Shown: positions 8,726 through 25,298 of the stretch, piece by piece
Layout: every line of letters begins with the position of its first letter
Position numbering within the stretch: position 1 is the first letter of the stretch
Assembly: GCA_002309695.1 (NCBI GenBank)
Contig: DBXV01000004.1
Span: 36,458-100,457, forward strand
From: Myxococcales bacterium UBA1203
Lineage (GTDB): Bacteria; Myxococcota; Myxococcia; Myxococcales; UBA5297
Reading direction: 5' to 3'
DNA length: 64,000 nucleotides
The notes under the pieces: generated by a model
Database searches by the model: none
Seen by the model: only the letters and a program-made list of their open reading frames with translations
What the model was told of the DNA's origin: nothing
Translations under genes and position numbers: made by a program

Positions 8726-9313
8726 GTGATTCGCTCAGTCAAAAATATCCCGCTTGCCGGACGGCGCGTGTTCATCCGCGCAGACTTCGACCTGCCTCTG
8801 GGCAAAAAAAGCGGCCTTCCCGAACGCAGAATCAACGAATCGCTGCCGACCATCCGCCTGGCGCTGGAACAGAAGGCCCGCGTCGTTGTCCTCACGCATC
8901 AGGGCAGCCTCAAAGCCAGCTGGAACCCGGCGCGGACCATTGAGCCCAGCGTTCAATACGTCGTCAGTCAGCTGGATACCGAGGCGCGCCTGGCGGACGA
9001 CTGCGCCGGAGATGCCGTGCGCAAGCTGCTGAGCGAGCTGGGTGAGGGGCAGCTGCTCTTTCTGGAAAATCTGGCCTGCCGTCCGGACGAGATTGAGGCC
9101 AGCCAGGATTACGCCGCGTTTCTGGCCAGATACTGCGACGTCTATGTGAACGAGGCCTTCGCTCAGGCCAACCGGCGGCTGACCTCGACCGTCCTTCTGC
9201 CCGCGCTGGTGAAGGACAGGTGCGCGGGCCTCCACTTCATGGAGGAGGCCGTTCGGCTGGACGCCGTGCGCTTCAAGCATCTGCCGGCGTGCGAGGCGCT
9301 GAACGAGAGCTGA
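8726..9313 (+). pseudogene. phosphoglycerate kinase N-terminal (substrate-binding) domain only: truncated or degenerate pgk-like ORF
   Basis: 195 aa, GTG start. RVFIRADFDLPLG, VVLTHQGSL and DVYVNEAFAQANRRLTS align by eye with PGK RVFVRVDFNVPL / SHLGRP / DVYVNDAFGTAHRAHAS. Conserved basic residues of the 3-PG site are substituted. The ORF stops after the N-domain and no ATP-binding C-domain follows. Sits in the classical gap-pgk position but downstream of a terminator. Confidence 0.5.
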
Positions 9314-9410: not shown

Positions 9411-10385
9411 ATGCACGTCAGGAATTTCCTTTCCCGGGACAAAATTCATTTGCTGCTGGCCGCCGCCGCAGCCCTCCATCTCGCCGCCTGCACCTCGGAA
9501 CCTCCGCCGCCTCCCCCGCCTCCCCCGCCGCCTCCTGAGCAGGCCAAGCCGCCCGAGCCGCCGCCTCCCCCGCCCGTCACGCCGTCGCTGACCCCCGAAG
9601 ACGAAGCGCGCCTGCAGACGGTCAAAATTGAAATCCAGGGCTCGCTGGAGGGCTCGCTGCGCAAGGCGCTGGACCGGGAGGTGGCCATTCCTCTCTCGCA
9701 GGTGACGGCCCGCATGCTGGTCTGGTGGGTCAACGTGGCCCGCGACCTCCGCAAAGGCGATGTGCTGACCATCGCCTACGAGGTGCAGAAGGGAAAAGAG
9801 CCCCTCCTCCACGCCGTGCGCTTCAACTCGGAAAAGGCCGGCAAGACCTTCCGCGCCTATCGCTTCAAGCCCGCGGGCCAGCCCTTCGCGCACTACTACG
9901 ACGAGACGGGGACCGAGATTGAGCAGACGCTGGTGGACAGCCCCATCGACGACTACGACCAGATCACGAGCATTCTGAAGGACGGCCGCAATCACAAAGG
10001 CGTCGATTTCCGCGCTCCCTCGGGCACGCCGGTGAAGATGCCTTTCAACGGCACGCTGGTGCGCAAGAACTGGAAGTTCACCGGCAACGGCAACTGCCTC
10101 GAATTTAAGGACCCCAAGGGACGCCGCATCATCTTCCTGCACCTGGAGGAGCTGCCCGAGGACCTCAAGGTCGGGCGCCAGTTCAAGAAGAGCGACGTGG
10201 TGGCCAAATCGGGCAACAGCGGCCGCTCATTCGCGCCCCACCTTCACTACCAGCTGGAAGACGCCAAGGGCCGGGTGCTGGACCCGTTCGAGGTCCACGA
10301 GACCTACCGCAAGACGATTCCCGCGGCGTCCAAGGCCTCCTTTGAGCTCACGGTCCTTCGCTACAACGAGCTGATGGACAAGTGA
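9411..10385 (+). CDS. M23 family metallopeptidase lipoprotein with poly-Pro linker
   Basis: Lipobox LAAC after a hydrophobic leader; PPPPPPPPPPPP...PPEPPPPPP linker; M23 motifs HKGVDF (HxxxD) and SFAPHLHYQL (HxH). Confidence 0.85.
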   Translation: MHVRNFLSRDKIHLLLAAAAALHLAACTSEPPPPPPPPPPPPEQAKPPEPPPPPPVTPSLTPEDEARLQTVKIEIQGSLEGSLRKALDREVAIPLSQVTARMLVWWVNVARDLRKGDVLTIAYEVQKGKEPLLHAVRFNSEKAGKTFRAYRFKPAGQPFAHYYDETGTEIEQTLVDSPIDDYDQITSILKDGRNHKGVDFRAPSGTPVKMPFNGTLVRKNWKFTGNGNCLEFKDPKGRRIIFLHLEELPEDLKVGRQFKKSDVVAKSGNSGRSFAPHLHYQLEDAKGRVLDPFEVHETYRKTIPAASKASFELTVLRYNELMDK

Positions 10386-11748: not shown

Positions 11749-11796
11749 GAAAATAAAAAAGCGGGCCGATAATCTCGCATGAGACCACCGGCCCGC
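11749..11796 (-). terminator. rho-independent terminator for giant gene A
   Basis: Minus strand: cgggccggtggtctcatgcgagattatcggcccgc followed by ttttttatttt. Confidence 0.65.
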
Positions 11797-11833
11797 TGGG
11801 CATTTTGTTCTGTTATTTCAGCAAGTTAGAAAA

Positions 11834-14800
11834 TTACTGCTCGTAAATCTTCACCTCCACTGGTCCGGCGCCAGTTGTTCGTGTGCCATTGGTAGTGGCG
11901 ACAATGGTCAGAGTCTGACCTGGGCTCATTGTATAGCGAATACAGGAATGATGGCTGCCCTGATAACGCGAATAGCAGGTGGAGTCGCTGCCGTTGTCGT
12001 TGCTAGTATAAGTACTTAATCCACCATATCCTCTCGGCCGGAATGGCGCTGGAACCAAATATAAATAGCCATCAATACCGCTCTGGAACAAAGCCTCGAA
12101 TATCAGTCGCTTGGATGTATCCGAGTCATTGGTAATGGTATAGGCTTTATATGGATATGTATAATTATTGTTATAATATGGTGTGGTAGAAGATCCTCTG
12201 TTCATAAAATAAGGCGATCCGGAGGAGTTATAGGCACCTCCCACCGTATTATCATCGGAATAGTCAGATAATGCGACTGGATAATACGTATCGCTGTCCA
12301 GTCGAATGACCGTATCCGGACAGGTTTCCAGCGTATCACCTACGCCGTCACCGCACGGTGATTCTGCGCAAACAGAAGGCTGCACAATGGAGCAAACATA
12401 CCCGTCCTCCACCTGGCAGTTATCATTACAGCCGTCACCATTGTCCGTATTATAGTCATCACATTGTTCGCCACTAAACATCCTGCCATCACCACAGGGA
12501 TTGCACAGCGAATAATAAACATTTCCATAAGCCTGTCGTCCTAATGAATCTCTGGGTCCCCAGACTGTATTTCCATAGTAAGAATTTGCGCAGTGATACC
12601 CATATTCCACTGTGCAGGAAGAAGAGCAGCCATCATCATCGTAGGTATTGCCGTCATCGCATCCCTCGCCATTGGAATAAATTCTGTCACCGCAGGTGAT
12701 GGGATAACAAATACTTCCGTGCAAATAATGACGCTCGTAACTGATATTATAATACTGCGAAGAAACACACTGCCAGCCGCTCTCCACACCACACGTCGAG
12801 CTGCATCCATCTCCGTCATCTAAGTTTCCGTCGTCGCAGCTTTCATTGTTGCCGCCGGTATAGCCATTACCGCAGACATATTTCGCACATTGTTCCCTGC
12901 ATGTCCCATAAGAACAGGTATAAGTACAATACCCATTCTCCGGCTGGCAGGAGCTGCTGCATCCATCTCCGTCCTCTAAGTTGCCGTCATCACAAGATTC
13001 ATTGCCTGTACGCAATCCGTTTCCGCACCCGGACTTAAAGAGATGCAATGCGCTCTTTCCCGTTTGATTTGTATAATAAGATGTAACAACAATGTATGCT
13101 GTTTCTCCAACGCCAATAACTTTTTCTTTCAGGCTGTTATGATAACCATAATAATAATTAACAGATTGGCTGTTCGAACAGGATGACGAAGGGAACGATC
13201 CTCGATAATAATACATCGAGTAATAATTATAGTAATTGCTCGTAAGCAGCGCATCCAGCTTCTGCTCAGTGCCTGTTTCATTCACGATAGCATAAACATT
13301 ATAATAATAACTTCCTCCTGACAGAGTATTGGAGCAGGTGCGATCCCACCGCCGACTGTCTGTTGTCAGCCTGTCATAAACAATTAAATCCAGGCTGGAA
13401 CCGTCTTTCCACCGATAGGCACAGGAAGAGGTGCAGTTGGAGGACTCCGTTCCATTCAAAGCACCGTCGTCGCACGTCTCGCCGGGGTCCTGAATGCCGT
13501 CGCCGCAGGTGATTCGGCCATTGCGGGTGCAGCTGGAGGTGCAGAGGTCGCCGCCATTGTCTTCCCCCTCGTCGCATTCCTCTCTGGCGTCCCGGATTCC
13601 GTCGCCGCAAATCATGGATGTGCAGTCGAGGCGGCATGTGGCTTCGGGGCTAAATCCATTAGCTGTTCCCTGGTCACACTCCTCGCCGGACTCGCGGTAG
13701 TTGTTGCCGCAATACGCCTCCGTCTGCCCGTCGCAGGTCTTATTGCAGTAGCCGCGGATGCCATTGAAGATGCCGTCGTCGCAGATTTCTCCCTCGTCTT
13801 CGTCCACGCGTCCGTCGCCGCAGACAGGGCCAGTCCCCTTACAGCCGGGGAGGCAGTGGCCATAAGTGCCGTCGTTCACGCCATCGTCGCAGTATTCGCC
13901 GTAATTTCGATCCATGAGGCCATCGCCGCAGCTGGGCAGCTTGCAGTTGGGACGGCAGCGGTTGGGCAGCATCATGTTGTATTCAGTGCCCTCATCGCAT
14001 TCCTCGCCGTTCAGACGCGAAATCATGCCGTCGCCGCAGAAGGCGCCGTATTCGCGGCAGTGGTAGCACTTCTTCTCGCCCTCGCTCGCGGCATAGCGGC
14101 CCGTGTTGACGCCGTCGTCGCACACTTCGCCCTCATCCAGCTCGCCGTCGCCGCAGTAGCTGCCATAGCCCCGGCACTCCAGGCACTTGGGCTGACCGCC
14201 GAAGCCGACATAGGCGCCGGTATTGACGCCGTCGTCGCAGACCTCGTCCGCGTCTTTGATGGCGTCGCCGCAGCCGGAGAGGCGGCAGTTCGTCCGGCAG
14301 ACCTGTTCCGTAGCACCGGCAGCCAGAGGAGCATCCGTGTTGCGGGCGCCATCGTCGCACTCCTCGCCCTCGTCCAGGATGCCGTCGCCGCAGGACACCA
14401 GGTGGCATTCGCTCGCGCCGGTGGAAGCGTTCACCGTGCATTTCCAGCCGTCCATCTGATGGCAGCTTGTGTCACATCCTTGGGTTCCGTCCGGTGTGCC
14501 AAAGTTCTCGATACTGCCGAAGTCGCAGTCCTCACCGCTGTCCACCACGCCGTCGCCGCAGCGGGCAGGGGTGCAGTTGGTGCGGCAGGTCAGGCCAATC
14601 ACGCCGCCGAAATCGCTGTTGGACTGGCCGTTGTCGCAGCGCTCGCCGTCGGTCGTCGCGCCGTCGCCGCAGTAGGGGCCCCAGCCGGTGCAGGCCAGGC
14701 AGCGGACTTCACGCGCATTGGCCGCCCAGCGCCGCGAGTTGTCGCCGTCGTCACAGACTTCGCCGTCGTTGACCACGTTGTCGCCGCACCACGGCAGGCG

Positions 14801-17800
14801 GCAGTTGAGGCGGCACTTGTGCGCGGCGGTGGAGCCGTTGCCGGCCGAATAGAGATAGGGGTTGGTGATGAGGCCCGCGGTTCCAAGGTCGCATTCCTCG
14901 CCCTCGTCCAGATAGCCGTCGCCGCAGGTGATTTGCCGACAGGCAGAGACGCCGCCCATATCCCAGCGGCACATCCAGCCTTCGGCCACGGAGCAGTCGG
15001 CCATGCAGCCGTCCGAGCCGTCCAGCGGCAGCTCATTCTCCAGCGAGCCCGTGTCGCACAGTTCGCCGTCGTCCTTCACGCCGTCGCCGCAGCGGGTGTT
15101 CATGCAGTTGGCGCGGCACCTGGCGTTGGGCAGGTTGGAATTGCCCGAGACGTAGCGTCCCTGAGCGTCCAGAACTTCCGGCCCATCGTCGCAGGACTCA
15201 CCCTCATCGACGATGCCGTCGCCGCACGTGGCCAGAATGCAGGTGGTCCGGCACAGAGAGCCCTCCTGGCCCGGCTCGTCGCTGTTCTGCTCACCCAGAT
15301 CGCACTCTTCGCCGTTGTCCACGACGCCGTCGCCGCAGCGTCCCGGCGTGCAGTCCAGACGGCAGGTGGCATTCGGTTTTTCAGAGTTGCCCGAGACGTA
15401 ATTGCCTCTCGCATCGGTGATTTCCGGGCCGTCGTCGCACTCCTCGTTCTGGTCCCGCGTGCCGTCGCCGCACCGGCGGGCAGTGCAGTCCGTCCGGCAG
15501 GGCACATCGGGGCCATTGCCGTTGGCAGTGCCGTTGTCGCAGCTCTCATTCGGGTCCTGAATGCCGTCGCCGCAGCGGGCGGGCGTGCAGTCTTTGCGGC
15601 AGGACGCGCCCGATTCATTGCTGTTGGCGTCTCCCTCGTCGCAGGTCTCGCCGTCATCCACCACGCCGTCGCCGCAGCTCGCCAGACGGCAGGTTTCGGG
15701 ACGGCAGGTCTCGCCGTGAATGCCGGCCAGAGCGCTGTTGGCGTCGCCCAAATCGCACTCTTCGCCGCTGTCCTTCACGCCGTCGCCGCAGCGCCGCGCG
15801 CGGCAGTTGGTCCGGCAGGGCGCATCCGGCGCTTCGCTGTTGGCCTCGCCCTGATCACACTCCTCGTTCCCCGTGACTTTGCCGTCGCCGCACGAGAGGA
15901 ACTTGCAGGCTTCTCCGCATTCAGCGCCGTCAGTGCCGTTGAGCGCGCCCAGGTCGCACGCCTCGCTCGAATCCACCACGCCGTCGCCGCAGCTGGGCAG
16001 CGCGCAGTTCGTCCGGCAGGCATCCGCCGCCGTGTCGCTGTTGGCATCCCCGTTGTCGCAGGCCTCGCGCCGGTCCTTCACGCCGTCGCCGCACCGGGGC
16101 TTTTGACAGTCAGGACGGCAGGGCGCGTCGGGAAGCAGGCTGTTGCCTTCGGCCGCGTCGCAGGCCTCGCCCTCATCGACAAAACCATCGCCGCATCTGG
16201 GAGCCGTGCAGTCCACGTGGCAGGCGTTCGCGGTCTGGCTGTTGTTCTGGCCGTCGTCGCACTGCTCGCCCTCGTCCTTCACGCCGTCGCCGCACGTGGG
16301 CAGCGCACAGTTCGTGCGGCAGGCATCCGCCGTCGTGTCGCTGTTGTCTCCGCCCTCGTCGCACTGCTCGCCGTCATCTGTCACGCCGTCGCCGCAGCGC
16401 CTGAGCGAACAATCCAGCCGGCACTCCGCATTGGGCGCGTCGCTGTTGGCATCCCCCAGGTCACAGGACTCATCCGCGTCTTTCACGCCGTCGCCGCAGC
16501 GGCGGGGCGTGCAGTCCGTCCGGCACTCCGCGTTGGGCGCATCGCTGTTCTGCTCGCCAAGATCGCAGGATTCGCCGTCATCGACGATGCCGTCACCGCA
16601 CCGCTGGGCTGTGCAGTCCGTCCGGCAGAGGGCATCCGGCTCGTCGCTGTTCTGCAAGCCCAAGTCGCACGTCTCGCCCTCGTCCTTCACGCCGTCGCCG
16701 CACCGCTGAGCGGTGCAGTCCGACCGGCAGGGAACATCGGGCAGGTCAGCATTGCCGGAAACATACGCGCCCTCGTCATCGGCCACATACGCCCCCAGAT
16801 CGCAGGCCTCGCCCTCATCGGTCACGCCGTCGCCGCAATGGGCAGGCGTGCAGTCCGTCCGGCAGGCATTGGCCTCTGTGTCACTGTTCTGCTCGCCCAG
16901 GTCGCAGATCTCGCCGTCATCGACCACGCCGTCGCCGCACCGCTTCACCCGGCAGTCCGGGCGGCAGCGCGCGTCGGGCAGAAGGCTGTTGCCTGACACC
17001 AGCGCGCCGGTGGCCTCGTCAAAAACTTCGGGACCCTCGTCGCAGGCTTCCTCAAAGGCCGTCTCAAAGGCCTCGCCGTTGTCCACAACGCCGTCACCGC
17101 ATCTGGGCAGCGTGCAGTTCGTCCGGCAGGTCAGAGGATCTGTGTCGCTGTTGGCATTTCCCTCATCGCACTGCTCGATGGAGTTCTTCACGCCGTCGCC
17201 GCAGGCCGCGGGAACACAGTTGGGACGGCAGACGGCCTCATCCGCCGCACTGTTGCCCGAGACCCACTCGCCCGCGTCATTCAGAACCTCGGCGCCCTGG
17301 TCACAGCCCTCGTCCGCGTCCTTCACGCCGTCGCCGCACTTGGGCAGCGCGCAGTTCGTCCGGCAGGCGTCCGCCTCTGTGTCGCTGTTCGCCGCGCCGT
17401 TGTCGCAGGCCTCGCCCTCATCCACGACGCTGTCGCCGCACCGTTTCAGCGTGCAGTCTGTCCGGCATTCCGCGTTGGGTTCGTCCGAATTCGCCTCGCC
17501 CAGATCGCAGGCTTCTTCGGAATCGCGCACGCCGTCGCCGCACCGGGGCAGGCCGCAATTTGTCCGACATTTAGCACCCGCGGCATCCGAATTGGCGCCG
17601 CCGAGGTCACAAGCCTCACCTTCATCTACAACACCGTCACCACAGCGCCTGAGTGTGCAGTCCGTCCGGCATTCCGCATTGGGCTCATTGGAATTTTGTT
17701 CACCCAAATCGCACTGCTCGCCGTCGTCCAAGGTTCCGTTGCCGCAGAGAATGTTCACGGGGACAGAGGCGTCCTCTTCTTTCTCTTTGCTGCTTTCATT

Positions 17801-17947
17801 GCAGCCGGGCAGAGCGCAGGCAGCGGCCAGAGAAACAGCCATGACCAATGATGAAATTCTTCCTCGAAATACAAAACGTCCGACAGAGGAAAGAATACCG
17901 GCATTATTTATAGATTTCATTGTCGTCATATCCGTTCTCCTTTCCAT
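11834..17947 (-). CDS. giant (2037 aa) secreted lipoprotein: ~34 tandem Myxococcus-type cysteine-rich repeats (TIGR02232-like, CGDG..D.GE.CD.G) plus a ~530-aa Tyr/Asn/Ser-rich C-terminal beta region
   Basis: Single uninterrupted ORF. N-terminal signal/lipobox (MKSINNAGILSSVGRFVFRGRISSLVMAVSLAAACALPGC). aa ~60-1505 are repeats of the form C(G/R)DG(V/I)xDxGExCDxGxxNS...CRTxCxLP(R/K). The CAYRW transition at nt ~13425 leads into a beta-rich region with four CGNG..E.CDDGN..DGDGCS..C..E.G modules. ATG 17947..17945 overlaps the stop of gene B. Confidence 0.85.
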   Translation of the reverse strand: MERRTDMTTMKSINNAGILSSVGRFVFRGRISSLVMAVSLAAACALPGCNESSKEKEEDASVPVNILCGNGTLDDGEQCDLGEQNSNEPNAECRTDCTLRRCGDGVVDEGEACDLGGANSDAAGAKCRTNCGLPRCGDGVRDSEEACDLGEANSDEPNAECRTDCTLKRCGDSVVDEGEACDNGAANSDTEADACRTNCALPKCGDGVKDADEGCDQGAEVLNDAGEWVSGNSAADEAVCRPNCVPAACGDGVKNSIEQCDEGNANSDTDPLTCRTNCTLPRCGDGVVDNGEAFETAFEEACDEGPEVFDEATGALVSGNSLLPDARCRPDCRVKRCGDGVVDDGEICDLGEQNSDTEANACRTDCTPAHCGDGVTDEGEACDLGAYVADDEGAYVSGNADLPDVPCRSDCTAQRCGDGVKDEGETCDLGLQNSDEPDALCRTDCTAQRCGDGIVDDGESCDLGEQNSDAPNAECRTDCTPRRCGDGVKDADESCDLGDANSDAPNAECRLDCSLRRCGDGVTDDGEQCDEGGDNSDTTADACRTNCALPTCGDGVKDEGEQCDDGQNNSQTANACHVDCTAPRCGDGFVDEGEACDAAEGNSLLPDAPCRPDCQKPRCGDGVKDRREACDNGDANSDTAADACRTNCALPSCGDGVVDSSEACDLGALNGTDGAECGEACKFLSCGDGKVTGNEECDQGEANSEAPDAPCRTNCRARRCGDGVKDSGEECDLGDANSALAGIHGETCRPETCRLASCGDGVVDDGETCDEGDANSNESGASCRKDCTPARCGDGIQDPNESCDNGTANGNGPDVPCRTDCTARRCGDGTRDQNEECDDGPEITDARGNYVSGNSEKPNATCRLDCTPGRCGDGVVDNGEECDLGEQNSDEPGQEGSLCRTTCILATCGDGIVDEGESCDDGPEVLDAQGRYVSGNSNLPNARCRANCMNTRCGDGVKDDGELCDTGSLENELPLDGSDGCMADCSVAEGWMCRWDMGGVSACRQITCGDGYLDEGEECDLGTAGLITNPYLYSAGNGSTAAHKCRLNCRLPWCGDNVVNDGEVCDDGDNSRRWAANAREVRCLACTGWGPYCGDGATTDGERCDNGQSNSDFGGVIGLTCRTNCTPARCGDGVVDSGEDCDFGSIENFGTPDGTQGCDTSCHQMDGWKCTVNASTGASECHLVSCGDGILDEGEECDDGARNTDAPLAAGATEQVCRTNCRLSGCGDAIKDADEVCDDGVNTGAYVGFGGQPKCLECRGYGSYCGDGELDEGEVCDDGVNTGRYAASEGEKKCYHCREYGAFCGDGMISRLNGEECDEGTEYNMMLPNRCRPNCKLPSCGDGLMDRNYGEYCDDGVNDGTYGHCLPGCKGTGPVCGDGRVDEDEGEICDDGIFNGIRGYCNKTCDGQTEAYCGNNYRESGEECDQGTANGFSPEATCRLDCTSMICGDGIRDAREECDEGEDNGGDLCTSSCTRNGRITCGDGIQDPGETCDDGALNGTESSNCTSSCAYRWKDGSSLDLIVYDRLTTDSRRWDRTCSNTLSGGSYYYNVYAIVNETGTEQKLDALLTSNYYNYYSMYYYRGSFPSSSCSNSQSVNYYYGYHNSLKEKVIGVGETAYIVVTSYYTNQTGKSALHLFKSGCGNGLRTGNESCDDGNLEDGDGCSSSCQPENGYCTYTCSYGTCREQCAKYVCGNGYTGGNNESCDDGNLDDGDGCSSTCGVESGWQCVSSQYYNISYERHYLHGSICYPITCGDRIYSNGEGCDDGNTYDDDGCSSSCTVEYGYHCANSYYGNTVWGPRDSLGRQAYGNVYYSLCNPCGDGRMFSGEQCDDYNTDNGDGCNDNCQVEDGYVCSIVQPSVCAESPCGDGVGDTLETCPDTVIRLDSDTYYPVALSDYSDDNTVGGAYNSSGSPYFMNRGSSTTPYYNNNYTYPYKAYTITNDSDTSKRLIFEALFQSGIDGYLYLVPAPFRPRGYGGLSTYTSNDNGSDSTCYSRYQGSHHSCIRYTMSPGQTLTIVATTNGTRTTGAGPVEVKIYEQ
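13425..17770 (-). repeat. coding tandem repeat array (~34 copies x ~126 nt) inside giant gene A
   Basis: Periodic CGDG/CDDG-encoding units visible across the whole interval at both DNA and protein level. Boundaries estimated by residue counting. Confidence 0.7.
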
Positions 17948-20900
17948 TAGTCCTCAGTATAAACATTAACTCTGGCCAGACCGCCGCCTGTCAGGCGTGT
18001 ATCATTGGTTGTCACGACAACCGATACGGTCTCGCCCGGCGCCAATGTATAATGCAGACAGGAATGACCGGTTCCCTGATTGCCTGTGTACGGAGTCTTA
18101 CAAGATTCTTCTGAGCCGCCCCATGTGGATGTCAGCCAGCCTGACCTTGACGAAGGATTAAACGGCGGGGTGAATAATTCGATAACGCCATTTCTCTCGT
18201 ATTTTGCTTCAATAATCAGCGCCTTATATTCAGATGTCGCATTCGTTAATGTGTAAGCGCGGAAGGGCGAGAATCCGCAATTATCCTGATTTTGGCTCTG
18301 CTGACTCGGAGAGCATGAATACTTCGGATAAATATAAGGCGTATCAATGACGCTGTTTAATGTTCCGCCCAGAAGATCTCCTTCTTCCGCCGACAGAGCC
18401 AGAGGGAACTCGGTCGAATTAGTGATCTTTATTCCGCATTCAGCACCTTCCATGACGCCGTCGCCGCAGACATCGGGGCCGCACATGGAGGGCCATGAAG
18501 CTGAACAAATATATCCATCTTCTACTTGGCACGCAGAGCTGCATCCGTCGCTGCCAGCCAGATTCCCGTCATCGCAGCTCTCACCGCCCTTCACCCTGCC
18601 ATTACCGCAGAAATCGCAGGAAGACATGGCAGACCAGACGTGCATGGCCAGAGTGCTGCTGATAGTCTGAGTCAATGTCTGATCTTCAATTGTGCATGAA
18701 GCATTCGCCTCCACTGTACAATCGGCAGCGCAGCCATCTCCATCTGCATTGTTGCCGTCGTCACATTCCTCGTTGCTGTCTTGGAAGCCATCACCGCAAA
18801 TGTTGGCTTCACAATGATTACCCACGTAGAAGCGTGAAACATCATCCGTCATATAAGTATAAACGGCCTGAATACATGTGCGTCCATCCTCGATGGTGCA
18901 GTCGGCAGCACATCCGTCACCATCTTCCCGGTTTCCATCATCGCATTCCTCAAAACCGTCTCTCGAACCATTGCCGCACATGGGGCTTTCAGGCTCAATA
19001 AGCTGATTGGCAGACAGGCATTCCCCGTCGTAGCAGGGGCACATAAGTTTGGTAAAGCCCTCCCAGCACCAGGCCTCGCAGCGGCCATACTCCGACTTGC
19101 AGTCGCTGCTGCATCCATCGCCGTCGATGTTATTTCCATCATCGCATTCTTCACCGTGGTAACTATCCCCATACCAAATAGGATAGCCGTCGGCGCCGCG
19201 TTCCAGATCACGAATGCCATTGCCGCAGCCCGTTTTGGCAATGCGAATCAGACCATGACAATTCTGCATTTCCGAGTAGGAATAGTCATTATCATAGGTG
19301 GATATTATTATGTAAGCGGTTCGTCCCGCAGGAAGGGACATTTCCTGCAAAATACTCTGCCATGAATCCCCGCAGTCATCGTCGTCACCATCATCATTGT
19401 AATTACAGCCATTGTTTGGGAAATTATCCAAATAATAGAAAAGATAACCGTCACAGCTAAAGTTAGCTTTAATATCAATGATCAAATCTTCAGTTGTTTC
19501 ATTAGTCAGAGCATATTTCTGATAGCGATGGGTTCCTGGCATTAGAACATCAGTACACTGGCTGTTGTGCCCATCATACCAATAGGGGCGTTCCCACGTC
19601 GGACTCGATTCATCCAAGGCATGGAAAATCGTCCAACGGGCATTGGGATCAGTCCAGCGATATGCACATTCTGATGTGCAGTTAGAGCCTTCGGTTCCAT
19701 TCAGGTCGCCGTCGTCGCAGGCTTCACCCGGATCCTGAATACCGTCGCCGCAGGTCGCCTCTCCTGCGCGCTTGCAGTCTGTTGTGCAGAGTTCGCCGCC
19801 GTTGTCGCTGCCGAGGTCGCAGTCTTCCATGGCATCTCTGCGTCCATCACCGCACACAATGGAAGTGCAGTCGGAATGGCAGGTCGAAACGGGGAATTCG
19901 CCATTGTAGTATTCGTCATCACACTCTTCTCCCTCATCCACATTGCCGTCGCCGCAGAAAGCCGCCACAGCCAGGCCCGGATCGCTGGAAGAGGTCATGG
20001 CCGTGCAGCTGACATTGCACCTGCCGGGGAGGCCATTGAGGATGCCGTCGTCGCAGTTTTCGATGCCGTTCTGAATGCCGTCGCCGCAGCCAAAGGCCAG
20101 CGCGCTGCAGTTGGACATGCAGTGTCCGTAGGTGCCGTCGTTGATGCCGTCGTCGCACCACTCGCCCACGTCGAGAATGGCGTCGCCGCAGCCGGCAAAG
20201 ACACATGAAGTCCGGCAGGGGGGAACCATTTCAGAGCCGGTCATGGGCGCATCGGTGTTTCCCGCGCCGTCGTCACACTGCTCGCCATTGGAGGGCACGC
20301 CGTCGCCGCAGTAGCTGTTCCACGACTGGCACCTGCTGCAGGTGCGTCCGGCGGCCGTGGGGGAATAGCGGCCTGGCGTGTTCACGCCGTCGTCGCAGAC
20401 TTCGCCCTTATCCGCATCCACATGGCCGTCGCCGCAGTGGGCGTCGAAGGAAGCGCACCCGGGGGCACAGATGGGCGCCTGTCCCGCTGCCGCATAGCCG
20501 CCCGCGTTCACGCCGTCGTCGCAGGCTTCACCGCTGTCCACGATGCCGTCGCCGCATCCGGCAATTTTGCACGTCGTCCGGCAGACAGCGGTGGTCTCGT
20601 GTCCGGTCAGGGGCGCGTCGCTGTTGCCCGCCGAGGTGACGGCGGGATTCGTGACCATGCCCACGGTGCCGTTGTCGCATTCCTCGCCTTCATCCAGCCA
20701 GCCGTTGCCGCAGCCCACTGTCCGGCAGCTGGTGACGCCGCCCGTGACAGAGCACGTCCAGCCGCTCGCCACCTGGCAGGACGCGGTGCAGCCGTCGGTG
20801 CCGTCCAGAGGCTTCGTCCGATCGAGACTTCCAGTGTCGCAGGATTCGCCGGGGTCCAGAACGCCGTCGCCGCAGCGGGCGGCCATGCAGTTCATCCGGC

Positions 20901-23900
20901 AGAGCGCGCCGGGTGCGTTGCTGTTGTCAGATCCCGCGTCGCAGGTTTCTCGTGCATCCACGATGTTGTCGCCGCAGATGACCTTCGTGCAGTCTGCGCG
21001 GCAGGTGGGATTGGCGCCGGCGCCGTTCAGGCGGCCGTTGTCGCATTCTTCGCTGGTGTCCTTTACGCCGTCGCCGCAGGAGGGCAGCTTGCAGTTTTTG
21101 CGGCAGGCTGCGCCTTCCGTGTCTGCATTGCCGGGGGTGGTGACGCCGGGATTGGTAATCATTCCCGCCGTGCCGAGGTCGCATTCTTCGCTGGCATCCT
21201 GATAGCCGTCGCCGCAGATGATGGGACGGCAGGAAGTCGCGCCCGTGGCGCCGACGCTGTCGCAGATCCAGCCATTCCTGACCTGGCACGCGGCGGTGCA
21301 TCCATCCGCGCCGCTGAGCATGGACATGCTGTCGATGCTGCCCGTGTCGCAGACCTCGCCCGGATCCAAAATGCCGTCGCCGCAGCGGCCGGGCAGGCAA
21401 TTCTCGCGGCAGGCGGCACCGGCCGCGTTGGAGTTGGCGGCGGCCAGATCGCAGGCTTCACCGCTGTCCACCACGCCGTCGCCGCACTTGGGCAGCGTGC
21501 AGTCCGGGCGGCACGCTGCGTCGGCCAGATTGCTGTTCTGACGTCCGGCATCGCAGGCCTCGCCGCTGTCCACCACGCCGTCGCCGCATCTGGGCAGCGT
21601 GCAGTCCGTCCGGCACTCAGCATTGGGCGCGTTGCTGTTGGAGGAGCCCTTGTCGCATTCCTCGCCTTCATCCTTCACGCCGTCGCCGCAGCGGGGACGC
21701 GTGCAGTCCGTCCGGCACGCGGAATCCGCCGCGTCGCTGTTCTCTTCACCCAAGTCGCAGACCTCGCCCACGTCGATCACGCCGTCGCCGCAGCGTGCGT
21801 AGGTGCAGTCAGGACGGCAGGTGATGCCGTGGGTGCCGCCGACCGAGGCGCTGTTGGCCTTGCCCGCGTCGCACTCCTCGCCCTCGTCCTTCACGCCGTC
21901 GCCGCACTTGGGCAGCGTGCAGTCCGTCCGGCAGGCCGCGCCGGCCACATCGGCGTTGGCGCTTCCCAAATCGCATTCCTCGCCCGGGTCCTGGATGCCG
22001 TCGCCGCAGCCGCTCCTGAGGCAGCTGCTTCTGCAAATGGCACCGGCCGCGTCGCTGTTGCCGGAGACATAGGCGCCCGTTTCGTCCAGAACTTCCGGCC
22101 CCTCGTCGCAGGCCTCACTGTTCAGGCTGTCCACCACGCCGTCGCCGCAGCGCCGCGGCTGGCAGTCGGGACGGCACGCTGCATTGGCGCGCAGGCTGTT
22201 CATCCGCCCCTCGTCGCACACCTCTGCATGGACGGTTTCAAAGGCCTCGCCCACGTCGATCACGCCGTCGCCGCATCTGGGCAGCATGCAGTTCGTCCGA
22301 CAGGCCAGTGCCGCCGTGTCGCTGTTTTGTTCGCCCTCGTCGCAGTCCTCGGCCGCATCCTTCACGCCGTCGCCGCACTTGGGCAGCGTGCAGTCAGGAC
22401 GGCAGTCAGCGTCGGGCAGCCGGCTGTTGCCCAAAACGTAAGCGCCCGAATCGTCCAGAACCTCTTCGCCCTCGTCGCAGGCCTCATCCGCCGACTTCAC
22501 GCCGTCGCCGCAGCGGGCAGGCGTGCAGTCAGGACGGCAGGCAGCCATCGGAGACGCACTGTTGCCGGCAGTCCACGCGCCCGATTCATCCAGGACTTCC
22601 TCGCCGTCGTCGCAGGTCTCGCCGTCATCAATCACGCCGTCGCCGCAGTGCGCCGCCTGGCAGTCCGTCCGGCAGGCGCCGGAAACCACGTCACTGTTGC
22701 CCGAAACGTAGGCGCCCTCTTCGTCCGTCACGGTCTCGCCGTCGTCGCAGGTCTCGCCGTCATCAATCACGCCATCGCCGCAGTATGCGGCCTTGCAGTC
22801 CGTTCGGCAGGCACCGGCAATCACGTCGCTGTTGCCAGAAACGTAGGCTCCCTCTTCGTCCGTCACGGTCTCGCCGTCGTCGCATTCCTCATCGGCAGAC
22901 TGCACGCCGTCGCCGCAGCGGGCAGGCGTGCAGTCAGGACGGCAGGCAGCCATGGGAGAGAGGCTGTTGCCCGAGAAATAGACGCCGGTCTCGTCCATGT
23001 TCTCAGGCCCGTCATCACAGGTCTCGCCGTCATCAATCACGCCGTCGCCGCAGTGCGCCGCCATGCAGTTCGTCCGGCAGGCGCCGGGAACGGTGTCGCT
23101 GTTGCCCGAGACGTAAGTGTCCTCGTCATCCGTCACGGTCTTGCCGTCGTCGCAGGCCTCGCCCTCGTCCTTCACGCCGTCGCCGCACCTGGGCAGCGTG
23201 CAGTTCGTTCGGCAGGTGTCCGGGAGCGTGTCGCTGTTGCCCGAGACATGGGCGCCCTCGTCATCCAAAACTTCCGCGCCCTCGTCGCAGTCTTCGCCCG
23301 CGTTGGGAACGCCGTCGCCGCACGAGGCCAGACGGCACTCAGGCAGGCAGTTGGCGCCCGGCGCGCTGCTGTTGCCCGAAATCCACGCGCCCGATTCCTC
23401 GTCGAGAACTTCCGCGCCCTCATCGCAGCCCTCATCTGCCGATTTCACGCCATCGCCGCAGCGGGCGGGTGTGCAGTCAGGACGGCAGCTGGCCGCCGGA
23501 GAGAGGCTGTTGCCGGACGTCCATTCGCCCGACGTCTCATCGAGAACTTCCGCGCCGTCGTCACACGTCTCGCCCTCGTCCTTCACGCCGTCGCCGCAGT
23601 GCGCCACCATGCAGTTCGTCCGGCAGGCGCCGGGAATGGTGTCGCTGTTGCCCGAGACGTAAGCGCCCGATTCGTCGAGGACTTCCGCGCCGTCGTCGCA
23701 TTCTTCGCCCTCGTCCTTCATGCCGTCGCCGCACTGAGGAAGGGTGCAGTCCGCCCGGCAGGGAACGTCCTGAATGCCCGGGTCGCAGGCCTCGCCTTTG
23801 TCCAGAACGCCGTTGCCGCACAAAACGGTCGTGGGCGGATCAATCACCTGAATTTTGTCCTCGCCGCACCCGCCGCCGGTCGCCAGCGCCACAACAGCGA

Positions 23901-23976
23901 TGCAGGAACCCAAAAGCGTTTTGAACTTTTTGCAGGCAAACACAGCCTCAGCCTGAGCCCGGAATGCGACTTTCAT
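17947..23976 (-). CDS. giant (2009 aa) secreted lipoprotein, paralog of gene A: ~33 Myxococcus-type Cys-rich repeats plus a ~570-aa C-terminal beta region
   Basis: ATG 23976..23974. Signal sequence (MKVAFRAQAEAVFACKKFKTLLGSCIAVVALATGGGCGED). Same repeat and C-terminal architecture as gene A. The C-terminal last ~50 aa are conserved between the two (SHSC(I/L)(R/H)YT..PG(Q/E)T...V.TTN.TR.TG.G). Stop TAA 17949..17947 overlaps the gene A start (TAATG). Confidence 0.85.
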   Translation of the reverse strand: MKVAFRAQAEAVFACKKFKTLLGSCIAVVALATGGGCGEDKIQVIDPPTTVLCGNGVLDKGEACDPGIQDVPCRADCTLPQCGDGMKDEGEECDDGAEVLDESGAYVSGNSDTIPGACRTNCMVAHCGDGVKDEGETCDDGAEVLDETSGEWTSGNSLSPAASCRPDCTPARCGDGVKSADEGCDEGAEVLDEESGAWISGNSSAPGANCLPECRLASCGDGVPNAGEDCDEGAEVLDDEGAHVSGNSDTLPDTCRTNCTLPRCGDGVKDEGEACDDGKTVTDDEDTYVSGNSDTVPGACRTNCMAAHCGDGVIDDGETCDDGPENMDETGVYFSGNSLSPMAACRPDCTPARCGDGVQSADEECDDGETVTDEEGAYVSGNSDVIAGACRTDCKAAYCGDGVIDDGETCDDGETVTDEEGAYVSGNSDVVSGACRTDCQAAHCGDGVIDDGETCDDGEEVLDESGAWTAGNSASPMAACRPDCTPARCGDGVKSADEACDEGEEVLDDSGAYVLGNSRLPDADCRPDCTLPKCGDGVKDAAEDCDEGEQNSDTAALACRTNCMLPRCGDGVIDVGEAFETVHAEVCDEGRMNSLRANAACRPDCQPRRCGDGVVDSLNSEACDEGPEVLDETGAYVSGNSDAAGAICRSSCLRSGCGDGIQDPGEECDLGSANADVAGAACRTDCTLPKCGDGVKDEGEECDAGKANSASVGGTHGITCRPDCTYARCGDGVIDVGEVCDLGEENSDAADSACRTDCTRPRCGDGVKDEGEECDKGSSNSNAPNAECRTDCTLPRCGDGVVDSGEACDAGRQNSNLADAACRPDCTLPKCGDGVVDSGEACDLAAANSNAAGAACRENCLPGRCGDGILDPGEVCDTGSIDSMSMLSGADGCTAACQVRNGWICDSVGATGATSCRPIICGDGYQDASEECDLGTAGMITNPGVTTPGNADTEGAACRKNCKLPSCGDGVKDTSEECDNGRLNGAGANPTCRADCTKVICGDNIVDARETCDAGSDNSNAPGALCRMNCMAARCGDGVLDPGESCDTGSLDRTKPLDGTDGCTASCQVASGWTCSVTGGVTSCRTVGCGNGWLDEGEECDNGTVGMVTNPAVTSAGNSDAPLTGHETTAVCRTTCKIAGCGDGIVDSGEACDDGVNAGGYAAAGQAPICAPGCASFDAHCGDGHVDADKGEVCDDGVNTPGRYSPTAAGRTCSRCQSWNSYCGDGVPSNGEQCDDGAGNTDAPMTGSEMVPPCRTSCVFAGCGDAILDVGEWCDDGINDGTYGHCMSNCSALAFGCGDGIQNGIENCDDGILNGLPGRCNVSCTAMTSSSDPGLAVAAFCGDGNVDEGEECDDEYYNGEFPVSTCHSDCTSIVCGDGRRDAMEDCDLGSDNGGELCTTDCKRAGEATCGDGIQDPGEACDDGDLNGTEGSNCTSECAYRWTDPNARWTIFHALDESSPTWERPYWYDGHNSQCTDVLMPGTHRYQKYALTNETTEDLIIDIKANFSCDGYLFYYLDNFPNNGCNYNDDGDDDDCGDSWQSILQEMSLPAGRTAYIIISTYDNDYSYSEMQNCHGLIRIAKTGCGNGIRDLERGADGYPIWYGDSYHGEECDDGNNIDGDGCSSDCKSEYGRCEAWCWEGFTKLMCPCYDGECLSANQLIEPESPMCGNGSRDGFEECDDGNREDGDGCAADCTIEDGRTCIQAVYTYMTDDVSRFYVGNHCEANICGDGFQDSNEECDDGNNADGDGCAADCTVEANASCTIEDQTLTQTISSTLAMHVWSAMSSCDFCGNGRVKGGESCDDGNLAGSDGCSSACQVEDGYICSASWPSMCGPDVCGDGVMEGAECGIKITNSTEFPLALSAEEGDLLGGTLNSVIDTPYIYPKYSCSPSQQSQNQDNCGFSPFRAYTLTNATSEYKALIIEAKYERNGVIELFTPPFNPSSRSGWLTSTWGGSEESCKTPYTGNQGTGHSCLHYTLAPGETVSVVVTTNDTRLTGGGLARVNVYTED
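19670..23830 (-). repeat. coding tandem repeat array (~33 copies) inside giant gene B
   Basis: Same periodic CGDG/CDDG units as gene A. Boundaries from residue counting. Confidence 0.7.
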
Positions 23977-24357
23977 CTGCGTCCCCTCTCTCCCCTGAAA
24001 AAGATGCGTTCACTCAATGCAGCTTTTCAAAAGCAGCGGCCAATTCCCCACAAACAGGCGCATTCAATCAAACCGGACGAAAGCAGGGAAGAATTTCCTT
24101 CGTTGCCGAGTCAAAAAAACACGATGTACCGAATTAACGCGCCTGTATTTACAGACGGCACTTTTGAAGACAGGAGAAATAATAAAGAATGGACGCACCT
24201 TCACCTCCCGCCAGGCATCAATTTGTCCTGGAAATTCTCAAAAAATGCGTTGCGCGGTTTTGGTGAATCTGCTGAGTATTTTGTCCAGCAATTCAGCCCT
24301 TCAAAAAGAGAGTTATGTTCTCCTCATTTTTCTCTTCCTTCCCCTCGGAGGTTCCTC

Positions 24358-25242
24358 ATGCCAAGACTTGGACAAACAAATGACTGGGACAACGATAATT
24401 GGGACAGCGGCAATAACGACCAGAATTTGGGAGATAAACTTCAGCATTCGCAGGAAGCGGCCCGTCTGGCGGCGTTTGGCGGCATGGATCGTGTCCAGAG
24501 CGATGGAGAAGCAATAGAATTTCTTGATGATGATAATACAAGCAATACTACAAATAATGTAATTGATGACGAAGATGAAGTTTTTATGGAGAGCCGGCGC
24601 CAATTTATGGGCCGTGTTTACAACTGGATGTTTGGCGGCCTCGCGCTGACGGCAGCGGCGGCGTGGTTTGTTTCACATTCCCAGGAGGCCCTGCAGCTTC
24701 TGATGCCGATTATGGGACAATTGCTGTTCGTGCCATTGGTTCTGGTTATTGTTATGAATCTGTGCATGAACAAAATGTCCGCGGCCGTCATGAGATTTTG
24801 TTTTATTCTTTACGCCGCTGTGACGGGCATCACGTTCGCGCCCATCTGCCTCGCCTACAAAATTTCCTCTCTGGCATCGGCATTTGCCGTCACATCCGCA
24901 ATGTTCGCCGCGCTCAGCCTCTACGGCCACTTCACGCGGCGCAATCTGTCCGGTCTGGGCGCTTTCTGCCTCATGGGCCTCGTCGGCGTGCTTCTGGGCA
25001 GCATCATCAATTTGTTCCTGGGCAATCCCATGGTGGATTTCATCGTCACCTGCTCAGGAATTATCGTATTTGCGGGATTGACGGCCTACGACACCAAAAA
25101 GCTGAAAACTATTCATAAGAATCTTTACGCCCACGGGGGAAATGATGAAAAAACACAGAAAATGGCCATCCGCGGTGCGCTCATACTTTATCTGGATTTC
25201 ATCAATCTGTTCCTGAAACTTTTAAGCCGCCGCAGGCGATGA
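24358..25242 (+). CDS. Bax inhibitor-1/YccA family membrane protein with an unusual ~80-aa Asn/Asp-rich N-terminal extension
   Basis: ATG 24358 with GGAGG 6 nt upstream. C-terminal GALILYLDFINLFLKLL is the family signature motif. Seven hydrophobic helices from FGGLALTAAAAWFV onward. N-terminus MPRLGQTNDWDNDNWDSGNNDQ...DDDNTSNTTNNVIDDEDE is low-complexity and low-GC. Alternative in-frame starts exist (MDRVQSD, MESRRQF). In the ORF track this gene is fused to an antisense shadow ORF (20422..25242). Confidence 0.8.
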   Translation: MPRLGQTNDWDNDNWDSGNNDQNLGDKLQHSQEAARLAAFGGMDRVQSDGEAIEFLDDDNTSNTTNNVIDDEDEVFMESRRQFMGRVYNWMFGGLALTAAAAWFVSHSQEALQLLMPIMGQLLFVPLVLVIVMNLCMNKMSAAVMRFCFILYAAVTGITFAPICLAYKISSLASAFAVTSAMFAALSLYGHFTRRNLSGLGAFCLMGLVGVLLGSIINLFLGNPMVDFIVTCSGIIVFAGLTAYDTKKLKTIHKNLYAHGGNDEKTQKMAIRGALILYLDFINLFLKLLSRRRR

Positions 25243-25253
25243 CTGAGAGGGCA

Positions 25254-25298
25254 TAAAAAAATCCCCTCTCCATATTTGTTTGGAGAGGGGATTTTTTT
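25254..25298. terminator. bidirectional rho-independent terminator between the convergent BI-1 and FISUMP genes
   Basis: aaaaaaatcccctctccatatttgtttggagaggggattttttt: 10-bp stem with an A-run on one side and a T-run on the other. Confidence 0.75.

What the first reader, a model, noticed from the sequence alone, without database searches (positions are those of the whole stretch)
11834..23976. Two tandem, translationally overlapping ~2000-aa paralogous lipoproteins built from ~33-34 Myxococcus-type Cys-rich repeats
Two adjacent minus-strand genes of 6.1 and 6.0 kb take up ~19% of the window. Both have the same architecture: lipoprotein signal, roughly 1400 aa of ~40-aa CGDGxxDxGExCDxG...CRTxC repeats (the family annotated as 'Myxococcus cysteine-rich repeat'), then a 530-570 aa Tyr/Asn/Ser-rich beta region with a conserved terminal ~50 aa. 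They are paralogs rather than identical copies. The upstream gene's stop overlaps the downstream start (TAATG at 17945-17949), implying co-expression. No enzymatic domain is visible, so function is open: surface adhesin, S-layer-like scaffold, predation or contact-related are all possible. Proteins of this size with this repeat type are very poorly characterised.
Basis: partly seen in the sequence, partly recalled or inferred. Interest (0 to 1): 0.75.

Follow-up and report, generated by a model that had tools for sequence, protein, structure and literature searches.

The report
Two giant stalk-and-head surface lipoproteins
Two neighbouring genes of an uncultured myxobacterium each encode a ~2000-residue probable lipoprotein: a long rod of small disulfide-knotted repeats carrying a two-domain "head" that looks built for binding, and the head has a foreign-looking codon signature and varies between relatives.

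Summary
ORFs 17947-23976 (B, 2009 aa) and 11834-17947 (A, 2037 aa) are intact minus-strand paralogs, 51% identical as protein and at most 74% as DNA, so they are not an assembly duplicate. Both pass the curated cut-offs of PF13948 and TIGR02232.

- The N-terminal arrays hold 38 (A) and 34 (B) CGDG units, mostly with 4 Cys and 34 or 45 aa long.
- The "Tyr/Asn/Ser-rich beta region" is a composite head: domain X1, four 6-Cys repeats plus a partial fifth unit, then domain X2.
- The TAATG overlap exists, but an AAGGAG Shine-Dalgarno site favours Met7 as A's start.

Unexpectedly, GC3 falls from 0.82 in the stalk to about 0.45-0.52 in the head of both genes. In the one related contig, X1 is 47% identical while X2 is 97% identical.

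Best reading: two co-transcribed, lipid-anchored, adhesin-like fibrils with an exchangeable binding head. The ligand is unknown. This is a new variant of a known but uncharacterised kind.

The parts
17947..23976 (-). Gene B, 2009 aa (stop codon TAA at 17947-17949)
   Evidence: ORF list; translation; PF13948 and TIGR02232 hits
23866..23976 (-). B signal peptide with lipobox AVVALATGGGC (Cys37)
   Evidence: PS51257-like pattern match; it is the only hydrophobic segment in the protein; SignalP/LipoP were not run
19666..23820 (-). B stalk, aa 53-1437: 34 CGDG units (32 with 4 Cys, 2 with 6 Cys); units 2-11 are the 45-46-aa variant
   Evidence: TRF periods of 102, 135 and 405 bp at 65-76% matches; GC3 0.79-0.83
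19228..19665 (-). B head domain X1 (aa 1438-1583), PPC-like beta-sandwich family X
   Evidence: local family HMM i-E 2.6e-31 (this sequence is in the HMM's training alignment); 26% identical to A X1; GC3 0.44
18436..19227 (-). B head: four canonical 6-Cys DUF4215 repeats plus a partial fifth CGDG unit (aa 1584-1847)
   Evidence: (best-scoring HMM stretches lie here); GC3 0.56
17950..18435 (-). B head domain X2 (aa 1848-2009), C-terminal
   Evidence: 36% identical to A X2; local family HMM i-E 7.3e-23 (training member); GC3 0.49
11834..17947 (-). Gene A, longest ORF 2037 aa; probable start at Met7 (ATG 17927-17929), preceded by SD AAGGAG at 17937-17942
17816..17929 (-). A signal peptide with lipobox LVMAVSLAAAC (Cys44 of the ORF)
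13421..17746 (-). A stalk, aa 68-1509: 38 CGDG units (36 with 4 Cys, 2 with 6 Cys), 17 of them exactly 34 aa
   Evidence: AF2 model of aa 416-551 (window 16295-16702) has pLDDT 94.5; GC3 0.81-0.82
13028..13420 (-). A head domain X1 (aa 1510-1640); hypervariable against the one related contig
   Evidence: 47% aa / 56% nt identity to the L081 ortholog; the GC3 change point falls at codon 1507
12323..13027 (-). A head: four canonical 6-Cys DUF4215 repeats plus a partial fifth CGDG unit (aa 1641-1875)
   Evidence: GC3 0.47
11837..12322 (-). A head domain X2 (aa 1876-2037), C-terminal; 97% identical to the ortholog
11760..11797 (-). Strong intrinsic-terminator-like hairpin (17 bp stem, T-run) 37 nt after A's stop
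23977..24357 (-). 381-bp region upstream of B, diverging from a + strand Bax1-I gene; presumed promoter region of the B-A operon (no promoter identified)

Best explanation
B and A are a two-gene operon encoding paralogous giant lipoproteins of about 207 and 215 kDa, built like fibrillar adhesins. An N-terminal lipid anchor (Cys37 / Cys44) is followed by about 1400 aa of tandem small acidic disulfide-knotted DUF4215/TIGR02232 modules, 34 or 38 units with 4 Cys each. These form a long, largely non-helical, non-sheet stalk. The stalk carries a distal head made of two PPC/collagen-binding-domain-like beta-sandwich domains (X1 and X2) separated by four 6-Cys DUF4215 modules plus a partial fifth unit. 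The head is the probable ligand-binding part. It has non-native codon usage and, in the one comparison available, a hypervariable X1 next to a conserved X2. This suggests that heads are exchanged or diversified on a conserved stalk to change binding specificity. Shown here: gene structure, repeat family membership, the existence of the X family and its fold class, the compositional break, and the mosaic divergence. Inferred: lipidation, surface exposure, rigidity of the stalk, binding function and co-expression. The ligand (prey, host or particle polymer) is unknown.
Against: There is no experimental evidence on localisation or binding for any DUF4215 protein; the literature calls the function unknown. 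B's lipobox is non-canonical at positions -3 and -2, and no signal-peptide predictor was run. The X2 model is only moderately confident (pLDDT 66.8, with 40 residues below 50), and a jelly-roll sandwich is a common fold with many non-binding roles. PF04151 itself does not hit X, even at E<=10. The polymorphism claim rests on one partial ortholog (64 aligned X1 residues). B has no close ortholog among 5.8 billion proteins. I could not read model coordinates, so stalk length, rigidity and disulfide pairing were not measured.
Confidence: 0.55

Rival explanations
1. Kin or cell-cell recognition receptors that work like TraA. A polymorphic head (X1) on a cysteine-rich stalk would mediate homotypic or heterotypic recognition between myxobacterial cells, and the two paralogs would give two specificities or a heteromeric pair.
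For: X1 is far more divergent than the genomic baseline while X2 and NamZ are conserved. The layout is stalk plus distal domain. The organism is a Myxococcales relative. TraA shows that a polymorphic domain on a Cys-rich stalk can set recognition specificity (PMC3325183; abstracts).
Against: None of TraA's defining parts is present. There is no PA14-like domain, and TIGR04201 does not hit even at E<=1. There is no MYXO-CTERM tail and no adjacent OmpA-type TraB; the neighbours are NamZ and a Bax1-I protein. The topology is inverted: the anchor is N-terminal and the head C-terminal. Only one allele pair was compared.
Confidence: 0.15
2. Released extracellular-matrix or biofilm scaffold proteins. 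The lipoprotein signal serves only for export, and the C-terminal PPC-like X2 acts as a secretion or maturation domain that is cleaved off, as PPC domains are in secreted peptidases. The acidic Cys-rich rods would then cross-link matrix, possibly through Ca2+.
For: In 85 of 146 X-family proteins an X domain ends within 5 aa of the C-terminus. X2 is much more conserved than X1, as expected for a handling module. By my own knowledge of the Pfam PF04151 description, PPC domains sit at the C-termini of secreted peptidases and are removed. A DUF4215 protein occurs in diatom adhesive trails. The stalk is strongly acidic.
Against: X domains also occur in 6-8 internal tandem copies, which does not fit a pure sorting tag. 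X1 is internal. No peptidase or other cargo domain is present. No cleavage site is evident.
Confidence: 0.2
3. Polymorphic-toxin-like delivery proteins. The compositionally foreign C-terminal module would be an exchangeable effector tip, as in Rhs or CdiA proteins.
For: There is a sharp GC3 break exactly at the stalk/head boundary, and mosaic divergence of the head. By my own knowledge, this is also seen at Rhs and CdiA C-terminal tips.
Against: The head contains only binding-type modules (DUF4215 repeats and PPC-like sandwiches). No toxin, nuclease, peptidase or other enzymatic family hits it. No small immunity-type ORF follows either gene: B is followed directly by A, and A by a terminator and a convergent NamZ gene. 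No orphan tips or repeated cassettes are nearby. X2, the extreme tip, is the conserved part, the opposite of toxin tips.
Confidence: 0.03
4. Artefact or decaying genes: one gene duplicated by mis-assembly of a repeat array, or non-functional remnants.
For: Long tandem-repeat genes are prone to assembly errors. A truncated pgk nearby shows that the region is not pristine.
Against: Both ORFs are uninterrupted for more than 2000 codons, and the stalk keeps the genome's GC3. The copies differ by about 49% in protein and by at least 26% in DNA, with no exact match longer than 35 nt between them. The heads share only 26-38% aa identity, region by region. An independent ENA contig carries an A ortholog next to NamZ.
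Confidence: 0.02

Closest known systems
DUF4215 (PF13948) / TIGR02232 'cysteine-rich acidic repeat' proteins of Myxococcota
   Same: Both proteins, and their stalks tested alone, pass the curated cut-offs. Other giant lipoproteins combine the same repeats with the same X domain: P0121 3398 aa, P0122 2358 aa, P0127 2807 aa, P0129 2935 aa, P0152 2617 aa.
   Different: Most stalk units are a short 4-Cys form (CGDGxxDxGExCDxGxxNSDxxxxxCRTDCxxxx) that matches only the first part of the models. B carries a run of ten 45-46-aa units with an 11-aa insert. The genes form a tandem co-transcribed pair, whereas P0122 and P0152 are singletons. The head has non-native codon usage. The family has no assigned function and no solved structure.
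Bacterial pre-peptidase C-terminal (PPC, PF04151) domain and clostridial collagenase collagen-binding domains (ColG s3a/s3b, ColH s3)
   Different: PF04151 gives no hit to X, even at E<=10. Sequence identity to the structural matches is 5-16%. X is longer (about 135 aa against 70 in the Pfam model) and has its own conserved motifs (DPTWxRP, GDGYLH, PFDP, C..GNDD), which A's and B's X2 have partly lost. No peptidase is attached. Collagen or Ca2+ binding was not tested.
TraA outer-membrane-exchange receptor of Myxococcus xanthus
   Same: A myxobacterial surface protein in which cysteine-rich tandem repeats are proposed to act as a rigid stalk presenting a polymorphic recognition domain (PMC3325183).
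   Different: The repeat family is different (TIGR04201, no hit here). The distal domain is PA14-like, not PPC-like. The anchor is a C-terminal MYXO-CTERM, not an N-terminal lipid. TraA needs TraB. It has about 9 repeats, against 34-38 here.
Fibrillar adhesins as defined by Monzon and Bateman (PMC8286594, PMC9210967)
   Same: An anchor, then a long stalk of tandem small domains, then putative binding domains at the far end.
   Different: DUF4215, PPC and Myxococcota are not mentioned in the main text of those surveys. The anchor here is a lipobox rather than a sortase, T1SS or autotransporter signal. Adhesive activity has not been shown.

Membership tests
DUF4215 (PF13948) / TIGR02232 cysteine-rich acidic repeat | Whole-protein HMM score above the curated cut-off | tested here: met
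   PF13948: 192 and 167 bits against a cut-off of 27. TIGR02232: 264 and 276 bits against 20.8.
DUF4215 (PF13948) / TIGR02232 cysteine-rich acidic repeat | The N-terminal stalk units themselves, not only the canonical head repeats, belong to the family | tested here: met
   A aa 416-652 and B aa 82-308 tested alone: PF13948 43.2 and 40.6 bits; TIGR02232 30.2 and 40.4 bits. Only the first part of each profile is matched.
Bacterial lipoprotein (Lgt/LspA substrate) | N-terminal signal peptide ending in a lipobox Cys | tested here: inconclusive
   A PS51257-like regular expression matches A (Cys44) and B (Cys37), and each protein has a single N-terminal hydrophobic segment. B is non-canonical at positions -3 and -2. 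No dedicated predictor was available.
Bacterial lipoprotein (Lgt/LspA substrate) | Acylated N-terminal Cys and membrane association | not testable with these tools
   Needs mass spectrometry, globomycin treatment or fractionation.
PPC (PF04151) / collagenase collagen-binding domain superfamily | Sequence match to the Pfam model | tested here: not met
   X1 and X2 of A and B give no Pfam or NCBIfam family at E<=10. Proteins made only of X domains give no PPC hit either.
PPC (PF04151) / collagenase collagen-binding domain superfamily | Beta-sandwich fold superposable on solved PPC and CBD structures, plus profile-profile similarity | tested here: met
PPC (PF04151) / collagenase collagen-binding domain superfamily | Ca2+-dependent collagen or substrate binding | not testable with these tools
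   Needs binding assays.
TraA-type kin-recognition receptor | PA14-like variable domain | tested here: not met
   No PA14 family among the Pfam hits.
TraA-type kin-recognition receptor | TIGR04201 Cys-rich repeats | tested here: not met
   NCBIfam lists only TIGR02232, both for the whole proteins and for stalk segments at E<=1.
TraA-type kin-recognition receptor | MYXO-CTERM sorting tag and an adjacent TraB (OmpA domain) gene | tested here: not met
   Both C-termini end in the X2 beta-strands, with no hydrophobic and basic tail. The neighbours are NamZ, a Bax1-I protein and a FISUMP lipoprotein.
Fibrillar adhesin (operational definition) | Long stalk of tandem repeat domains plus a cell anchor | tested here: met
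   38 and 34 tandem units spanning 1442 and 1385 aa. The anchor is inferred from the lipobox.
Fibrillar adhesin (operational definition) | A domain with demonstrated adhesive activity | not testable with these tools
   X has a binding-type fold only. No family member has been characterised.
Polymorphic toxin (Rhs / CdiA-like) | C-terminal toxin domain followed by an immunity gene | tested here: not met
   No toxin or enzyme family in the heads. No downstream small ORF: B is followed by A, and A by a terminator and a convergent NamZ gene.

The most novel reading that the evidence does not exclude
The heads (X1 - 6-Cys repeats - X2) are horizontally exchanged specificity cassettes grafted onto a vertically inherited stalk. 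That would make a modular, polymorphic recognition system in a probably gut-associated myxobacterial lineage. Functionally it would parallel TraA variable domains or tail-fibre tip swapping, but it would be built from an uncharacterised PPC-like domain family and a repeat module with no solved structural relative.
Probability: 0.2. Interest if true: 0.75.

Novelty: new variant of a known kind. Interest (0 to 1): 0.5.

Why it matters
DUF4215/TIGR02232 repeat proteins are very common in Myxococcota, occur in Peregrinibacteria, and have been transferred into eukaryotes. Yet they have no assigned function and no solved structure. This locus offers three concrete handles.

1. The 34-aa, 4-Cys stalk module is predicted at very high confidence and has no detectable PDB analogue. 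It is a good target for structure determination.

2. The head domain belongs to a family of about 135 aa that Pfam and NCBIfam do not annotate. The family has at least 871 cluster representatives and is distantly related to PPC and collagen-binding domains. This gives a testable binding hypothesis for a whole class of giant myxobacterial lipoproteins.

3. The head shows a clean codon-usage break from the stalk and mosaic divergence between relatives. This suggests that heads are swapped or diversified, so these proteins could be specificity determinants for prey, host or kin in a little-known, probably animal-gut-associated myxobacterial lineage.

Tried and rejected
- Pfam and NCBIfam on the isolated X1 and X2 domains at E<=10: nothing apart from one chance-level hit.
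- PDB sequence search with stalk repeats and with head repeats: no match at E<=1.
- The afdb50 fold library was unavailable.
- Synteny: the genome scan with the neighbouring NamZ returned 80 Myxococcales loci. The best are 74-78% identical (L001-L003) and have no 2000-aa ORF beside NamZ. No locus among L001-L012 shares any other window gene.
- JGI metagenome scan with A X2: no relative found.
- Exact look-up of B in the assembly index: not on record.
- Search for a B ortholog among 5.8 billion proteins: none; the best full-coverage hit is the A ortholog at 38%.
- Diversity-generating retroelement as the cause of X1 variability: no template-like repeat of the head anywhere in the window.
- Sigma-54 promoter upstream of B: no site, and matches window-wide are below chance. 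Sigma-70-like sites: none in the B upstream region.
- S-layer idea: no supporting feature found.
- Low GC of the head as an amino-acid-composition effect: rejected, because GC3 and synonymous codon choice for Gly, Asp, Cys, Asn and Tyr all shift.
- Low GC3 as an intrinsic property of X domains: rejected, because four other X-domain genes show no break.


Full report
**Observation.** Together they cover 19% of the window. Each protein is about 9% cysteine, with 190 and 181 Cys, and has a pI near 4. Pfam PF13948 (DUF4215) scores E 1.5e-57 and 8.5e-50, and NCBIfam TIGR02232 scores E 3e-80 and 6e-84. No other family passes, so there is no recognisable enzymatic domain.

The long + strand ORFs that overlap them (13856..16996 and 20422..25242) are shadow ORFs of GC-rich repeat DNA.

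**Paralogs, not an artefact.** The global protein alignment gives 51% identity. By region, X1 is 26% identical, X2 36% and the head repeats 38%. At the DNA level the best HSPs are 62-74% identical. The longest exact match is 35 nt between the genes and 31 and 51 nt within them. Tandem Repeats Finder reports periods of 102, 135 and 405 bp with only 65-76% matches. These are old, diverged repeats, so a collapsed array or an assembly-made duplication is unlikely. An independent ENA contig (L081) carries an A ortholog next to NamZ.

**Anatomy.** Splitting each protein at the CG[DN]G motif gives an N-terminal array of 38 units in A (aa 68-1509) and 34 units in B (aa 53-1437). Of these 72 units, 68 have four Cys and four have six. 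The modal unit is 34 aa: CGDGxxDxGExCDxGxxNSDxxxxxCRTDCxxxx. A 45-46-aa variant carries an insert of the form VLDExGAYVSGNS. It makes up B units 2-11 and is scattered through A.

The distal third of the two stalks is collinear (reciprocal best matches A25-B25, A26-B22, A30-B29, A34-B30, A37-B33, A38-B34). The proximal two-thirds has expanded independently in each gene. Stalk segments tested alone still pass both curated cut-offs, so they are divergent but genuine family members. TraA's repeat model TIGR04201 does not hit.

The C-terminal 528 aa (A) and 572 aa (B) are not one beta region. They are a composite head: a domain of about 130-145 aa (X1), four canonical 6-Cys DUF4215 repeats plus a partial fifth CGDG unit, and a C-terminal domain of about 160 aa (X2).

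**Gene boundaries.** B's TAA stop (17947-17949) overlaps the first ATG of A's ORF. However, a perfect AAGGAG (17937-17942) lies 7 nt upstream of the second ATG (17927-17929). Met7 is therefore the likelier start, which leaves a 17-nt spacer.

A strong terminator-like hairpin follows A at 11760-11797. Upstream of B there are 381 bp and then a divergent + strand Bax1-I family gene at about 24358-25242 (PF01027, E 6.6e-54). The operon is therefore B-A only. The upstream FISUMP lipoprotein gene is a separate unit. I found no convincing sigma-70 or sigma-54 site upstream of B.

**Signals.** Each protein has a single hydrophobic segment, at the N-terminus, and a PS51257-like lipobox: A LVMAVSLAAAC (Cys44) and B AVVALATGGGC (Cys37). 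Neither has a MYXO-CTERM-type tail. Lipidation and outer-membrane or surface location are inferred, not shown.

**The head domain is an unannotated family.** X1 and X2 get no Pfam or NCBIfam assignment even at E<=10. They are weakly similar to each other (blastp 1.6e-7 with composition statistics switched off). They align with domains in Vulgatibacter and metagenomic proteins.

A profile search of 1.84 billion cluster representatives found 871 proteins at E<=1e-3 and 259 at E<=1e-10. Some carry up to 8-9 copies. Many combine X with CGDG repeats, and some consist of X domains alone. Proteins made only of X domains have no Pfam hit on those regions, and the source names are uninformative. Of the Met-starting representatives, 74 of 131 have a lipobox, and in 85 of 146 an X domain ends at the extreme C-terminus.

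The family consensus includes the motifs DPTWxRP, GDGYLH, PFDP and C..GNDD. The X2 domains of A and B are divergent members that have lost some of these.

A local hhalign of the X alignment against a profile of PPC-like domains, taken from co-occurring proteins, gave 95.3% probability and E 2e-8 over 84 columns. The seed of that profile matches PF04151 at E 2e-4, over the full model length but below the gathering score. X is therefore best described as a distant PPC/collagen-binding-domain-like jelly roll. It is not a member of PF04151 as that model is defined.

**An unexpected compositional break.** GC3 is 0.79-0.83 across both stalks, equal to the window baseline of 0.82 +/- 0.04 from 16 genes. 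In X1, the head repeats and X2 of both genes it is 0.41-0.56. The maximum-likelihood change point falls at A codon 1507, which is the stalk/X1 junction, and at about codon 1345-1410 in B.

Synonymous choice for the same amino acids shifts too. Gly GGC is 81-85% in the stalk against 35-46% in the head repeats, and Asp GAC is 76-79% against 39-48%. Amino-acid composition therefore does not explain the break.

Four other X-domain genes (P0039, P0046, P0122, P0152) show no difference between X domains and the rest of the gene. The A ortholog on L081 has the same low-GC3 head (0.44) next to a normal NamZ (0.79). The neighbouring FISUMP gene (0.61) and Bax1-I gene (0.59) are also below baseline.

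**Mosaic divergence.** The table compares A with the L081 ortholog.

| Region | aa identity | nt identity |
|---|---|---|
| Visible part of X1 (64 aligned residues) | 47% | 56% |
| Head repeats 1-3 | 73-77% | 66-72% |
| Head repeats 4-5 | 98% | 87% |
| X2 | 97% | 91% |
| NamZ (baseline) | not computed | 88.7% |

Synonymous differences are also more frequent in X1: 0.60 of identical-residue codons carry one, against 0.24 in X2. This points to an old divergent allele brought in by recombination rather than to recent point-wise selection. It rests on one comparison only. B has no close ortholog among 5.8 billion proteins. I found no DGR-type template repeat.

**Organism and context.** NamZ's best genome matches, at 74-78% identity, are uncultured Myxococcales MAGs, one of them from sheep colon. 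Cultured Myxococcaceae are 60-65% identical. The three best-matching loci (L001-L003) have no 2000-aa ORF beside NamZ, and L001-L012 share no other window gene.

The flanking genes are housekeeping: gap, a truncated pgk, an M23 peptidase, NamZ, pyrH, frr, recN, a helicase and SpoIID. Other giant X/DUF4215 lipoproteins (P0122, P0152) are singletons among housekeeping genes with no conserved partner.

**Interpretation.** The best-supported model is a two-gene operon for lipid-anchored, fibrillar-adhesin-like proteins. Each has an acidic, disulfide-knotted DUF4215 stalk of about 1400 aa that carries a distal head. The head holds two PPC/CBD-like sandwiches and is the probable ligand-binding and specificity-bearing part. 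Its foreign codon signature and mosaic divergence suggest cassette exchange.

The closest functional analogy is TraA, for which a Cys-rich 'rigid stalk' presenting a polymorphic domain was proposed (PMC3325183). Every defining TraA feature tested here is absent, however. Rivals are a shed matrix scaffold with X2 acting as a secretion or maturation domain, a kin-recognition receptor, and (unlikely) a toxin-tip system or an artefact.

The literature gives no function for DUF4215. The fibrillar-adhesin surveys do not mention DUF4215, PPC or Myxococcota in their main text.

**Verdict.** This is a new variant of a known but uncharacterised kind. Interest is moderate (0.5). It is raised by the unannotated head-domain family, the confidently modelled stalk module that has no solved analogue, and the head-specific compositional and allelic mosaicism.

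Noticed in passing
window 8726-9313 (+): The phosphoglycerate kinase ORF is only 195 aa and matches PGK profile positions 1-174 of 379. The next gene (M23 peptidase, 9411-10385) leaves no room for the missing C-terminal half. This is a truncated or pseudogenised pgk, or a local rearrangement or assembly join.
   Followed up: no
window 25325-28300 (-): A separate large probable lipoprotein (signal ...LSISAAAC) with three FISUMP / Fib_succ_major domains (TIGR02145, E 2.8e-92) interleaved with EGF/laminin-EGF-like Cys-rich modules. Its GC3 is 0.61, below the genome baseline. I know this domain mainly from Fibrobacter. Together with a closest NamZ match in a sheep-colon MAG, it hints at an animal-gut habitat.
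   Followed up: partly
window ~24358-25242 (+): A Bax1-I / YccA-family membrane protein (PF01027, E 6.6e-54) with an unusually long, acidic, Asn/Asp-rich N-terminal extension of about 80 aa and a low GC3 of 0.59. It is convergent with the FISUMP gene and shares a bidirectional terminator-like hairpin at about 25260-25295.
   Followed up: partly
L081 1721-3328 (ENA ERZ27317991 k141_136857): In the related strain, an extra 535-aa lipoprotein gene sits between the A ortholog and NamZ. It has no Pfam hit on record, internal repeats of about 120 aa each with a GGGG motif, and GC3 0.53. It has no counterpart in the window, so this junction is a variable spot.
   Followed up: no
window 30102-30665 (+): The ribosome-recycling-factor protein is identical to one on a 1.7-kb contig of NCBI assembly GCA_016648615.1, whose file is too large to load. 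The source organism or a near-identical strain may therefore be present in a large host-genome or metagenome assembly.
   Followed up: no
window 13856-16996 (+) and 20422-25242 (+): Very long antisense ORFs (1046 and 1606 aa) lie opposite the stalk-coding DNA. Their GC3 (0.62-0.65) is lower than their GC1 (0.74-0.84), as expected for shadow ORFs of GC-rich repeats. They should not be annotated as genes.
   Followed up: partly
window 22331-23292 (-), B units about 5-11: A higher-order 405-bp period (three 45-aa units) with 76% matches shows that the 45-aa array of B grew by duplication of a three-unit block.
   Followed up: no
model md4604b25f42a (A aa 416-551): The only structural echoes of the stalk module, all non-significant, are ADAM and snake-venom disintegrin regions and PAPP-A stretches (39-40 aligned columns, 35-36% identity, rmsd 1.8-2.8). 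From memory these PAPP-A stretches may be Ca2+-binding Lin12-Notch repeats; I did not check. With the invariant E10 and D13 of the repeat, this raises the untested idea that the stalk binds Ca2+.
   Followed up: no
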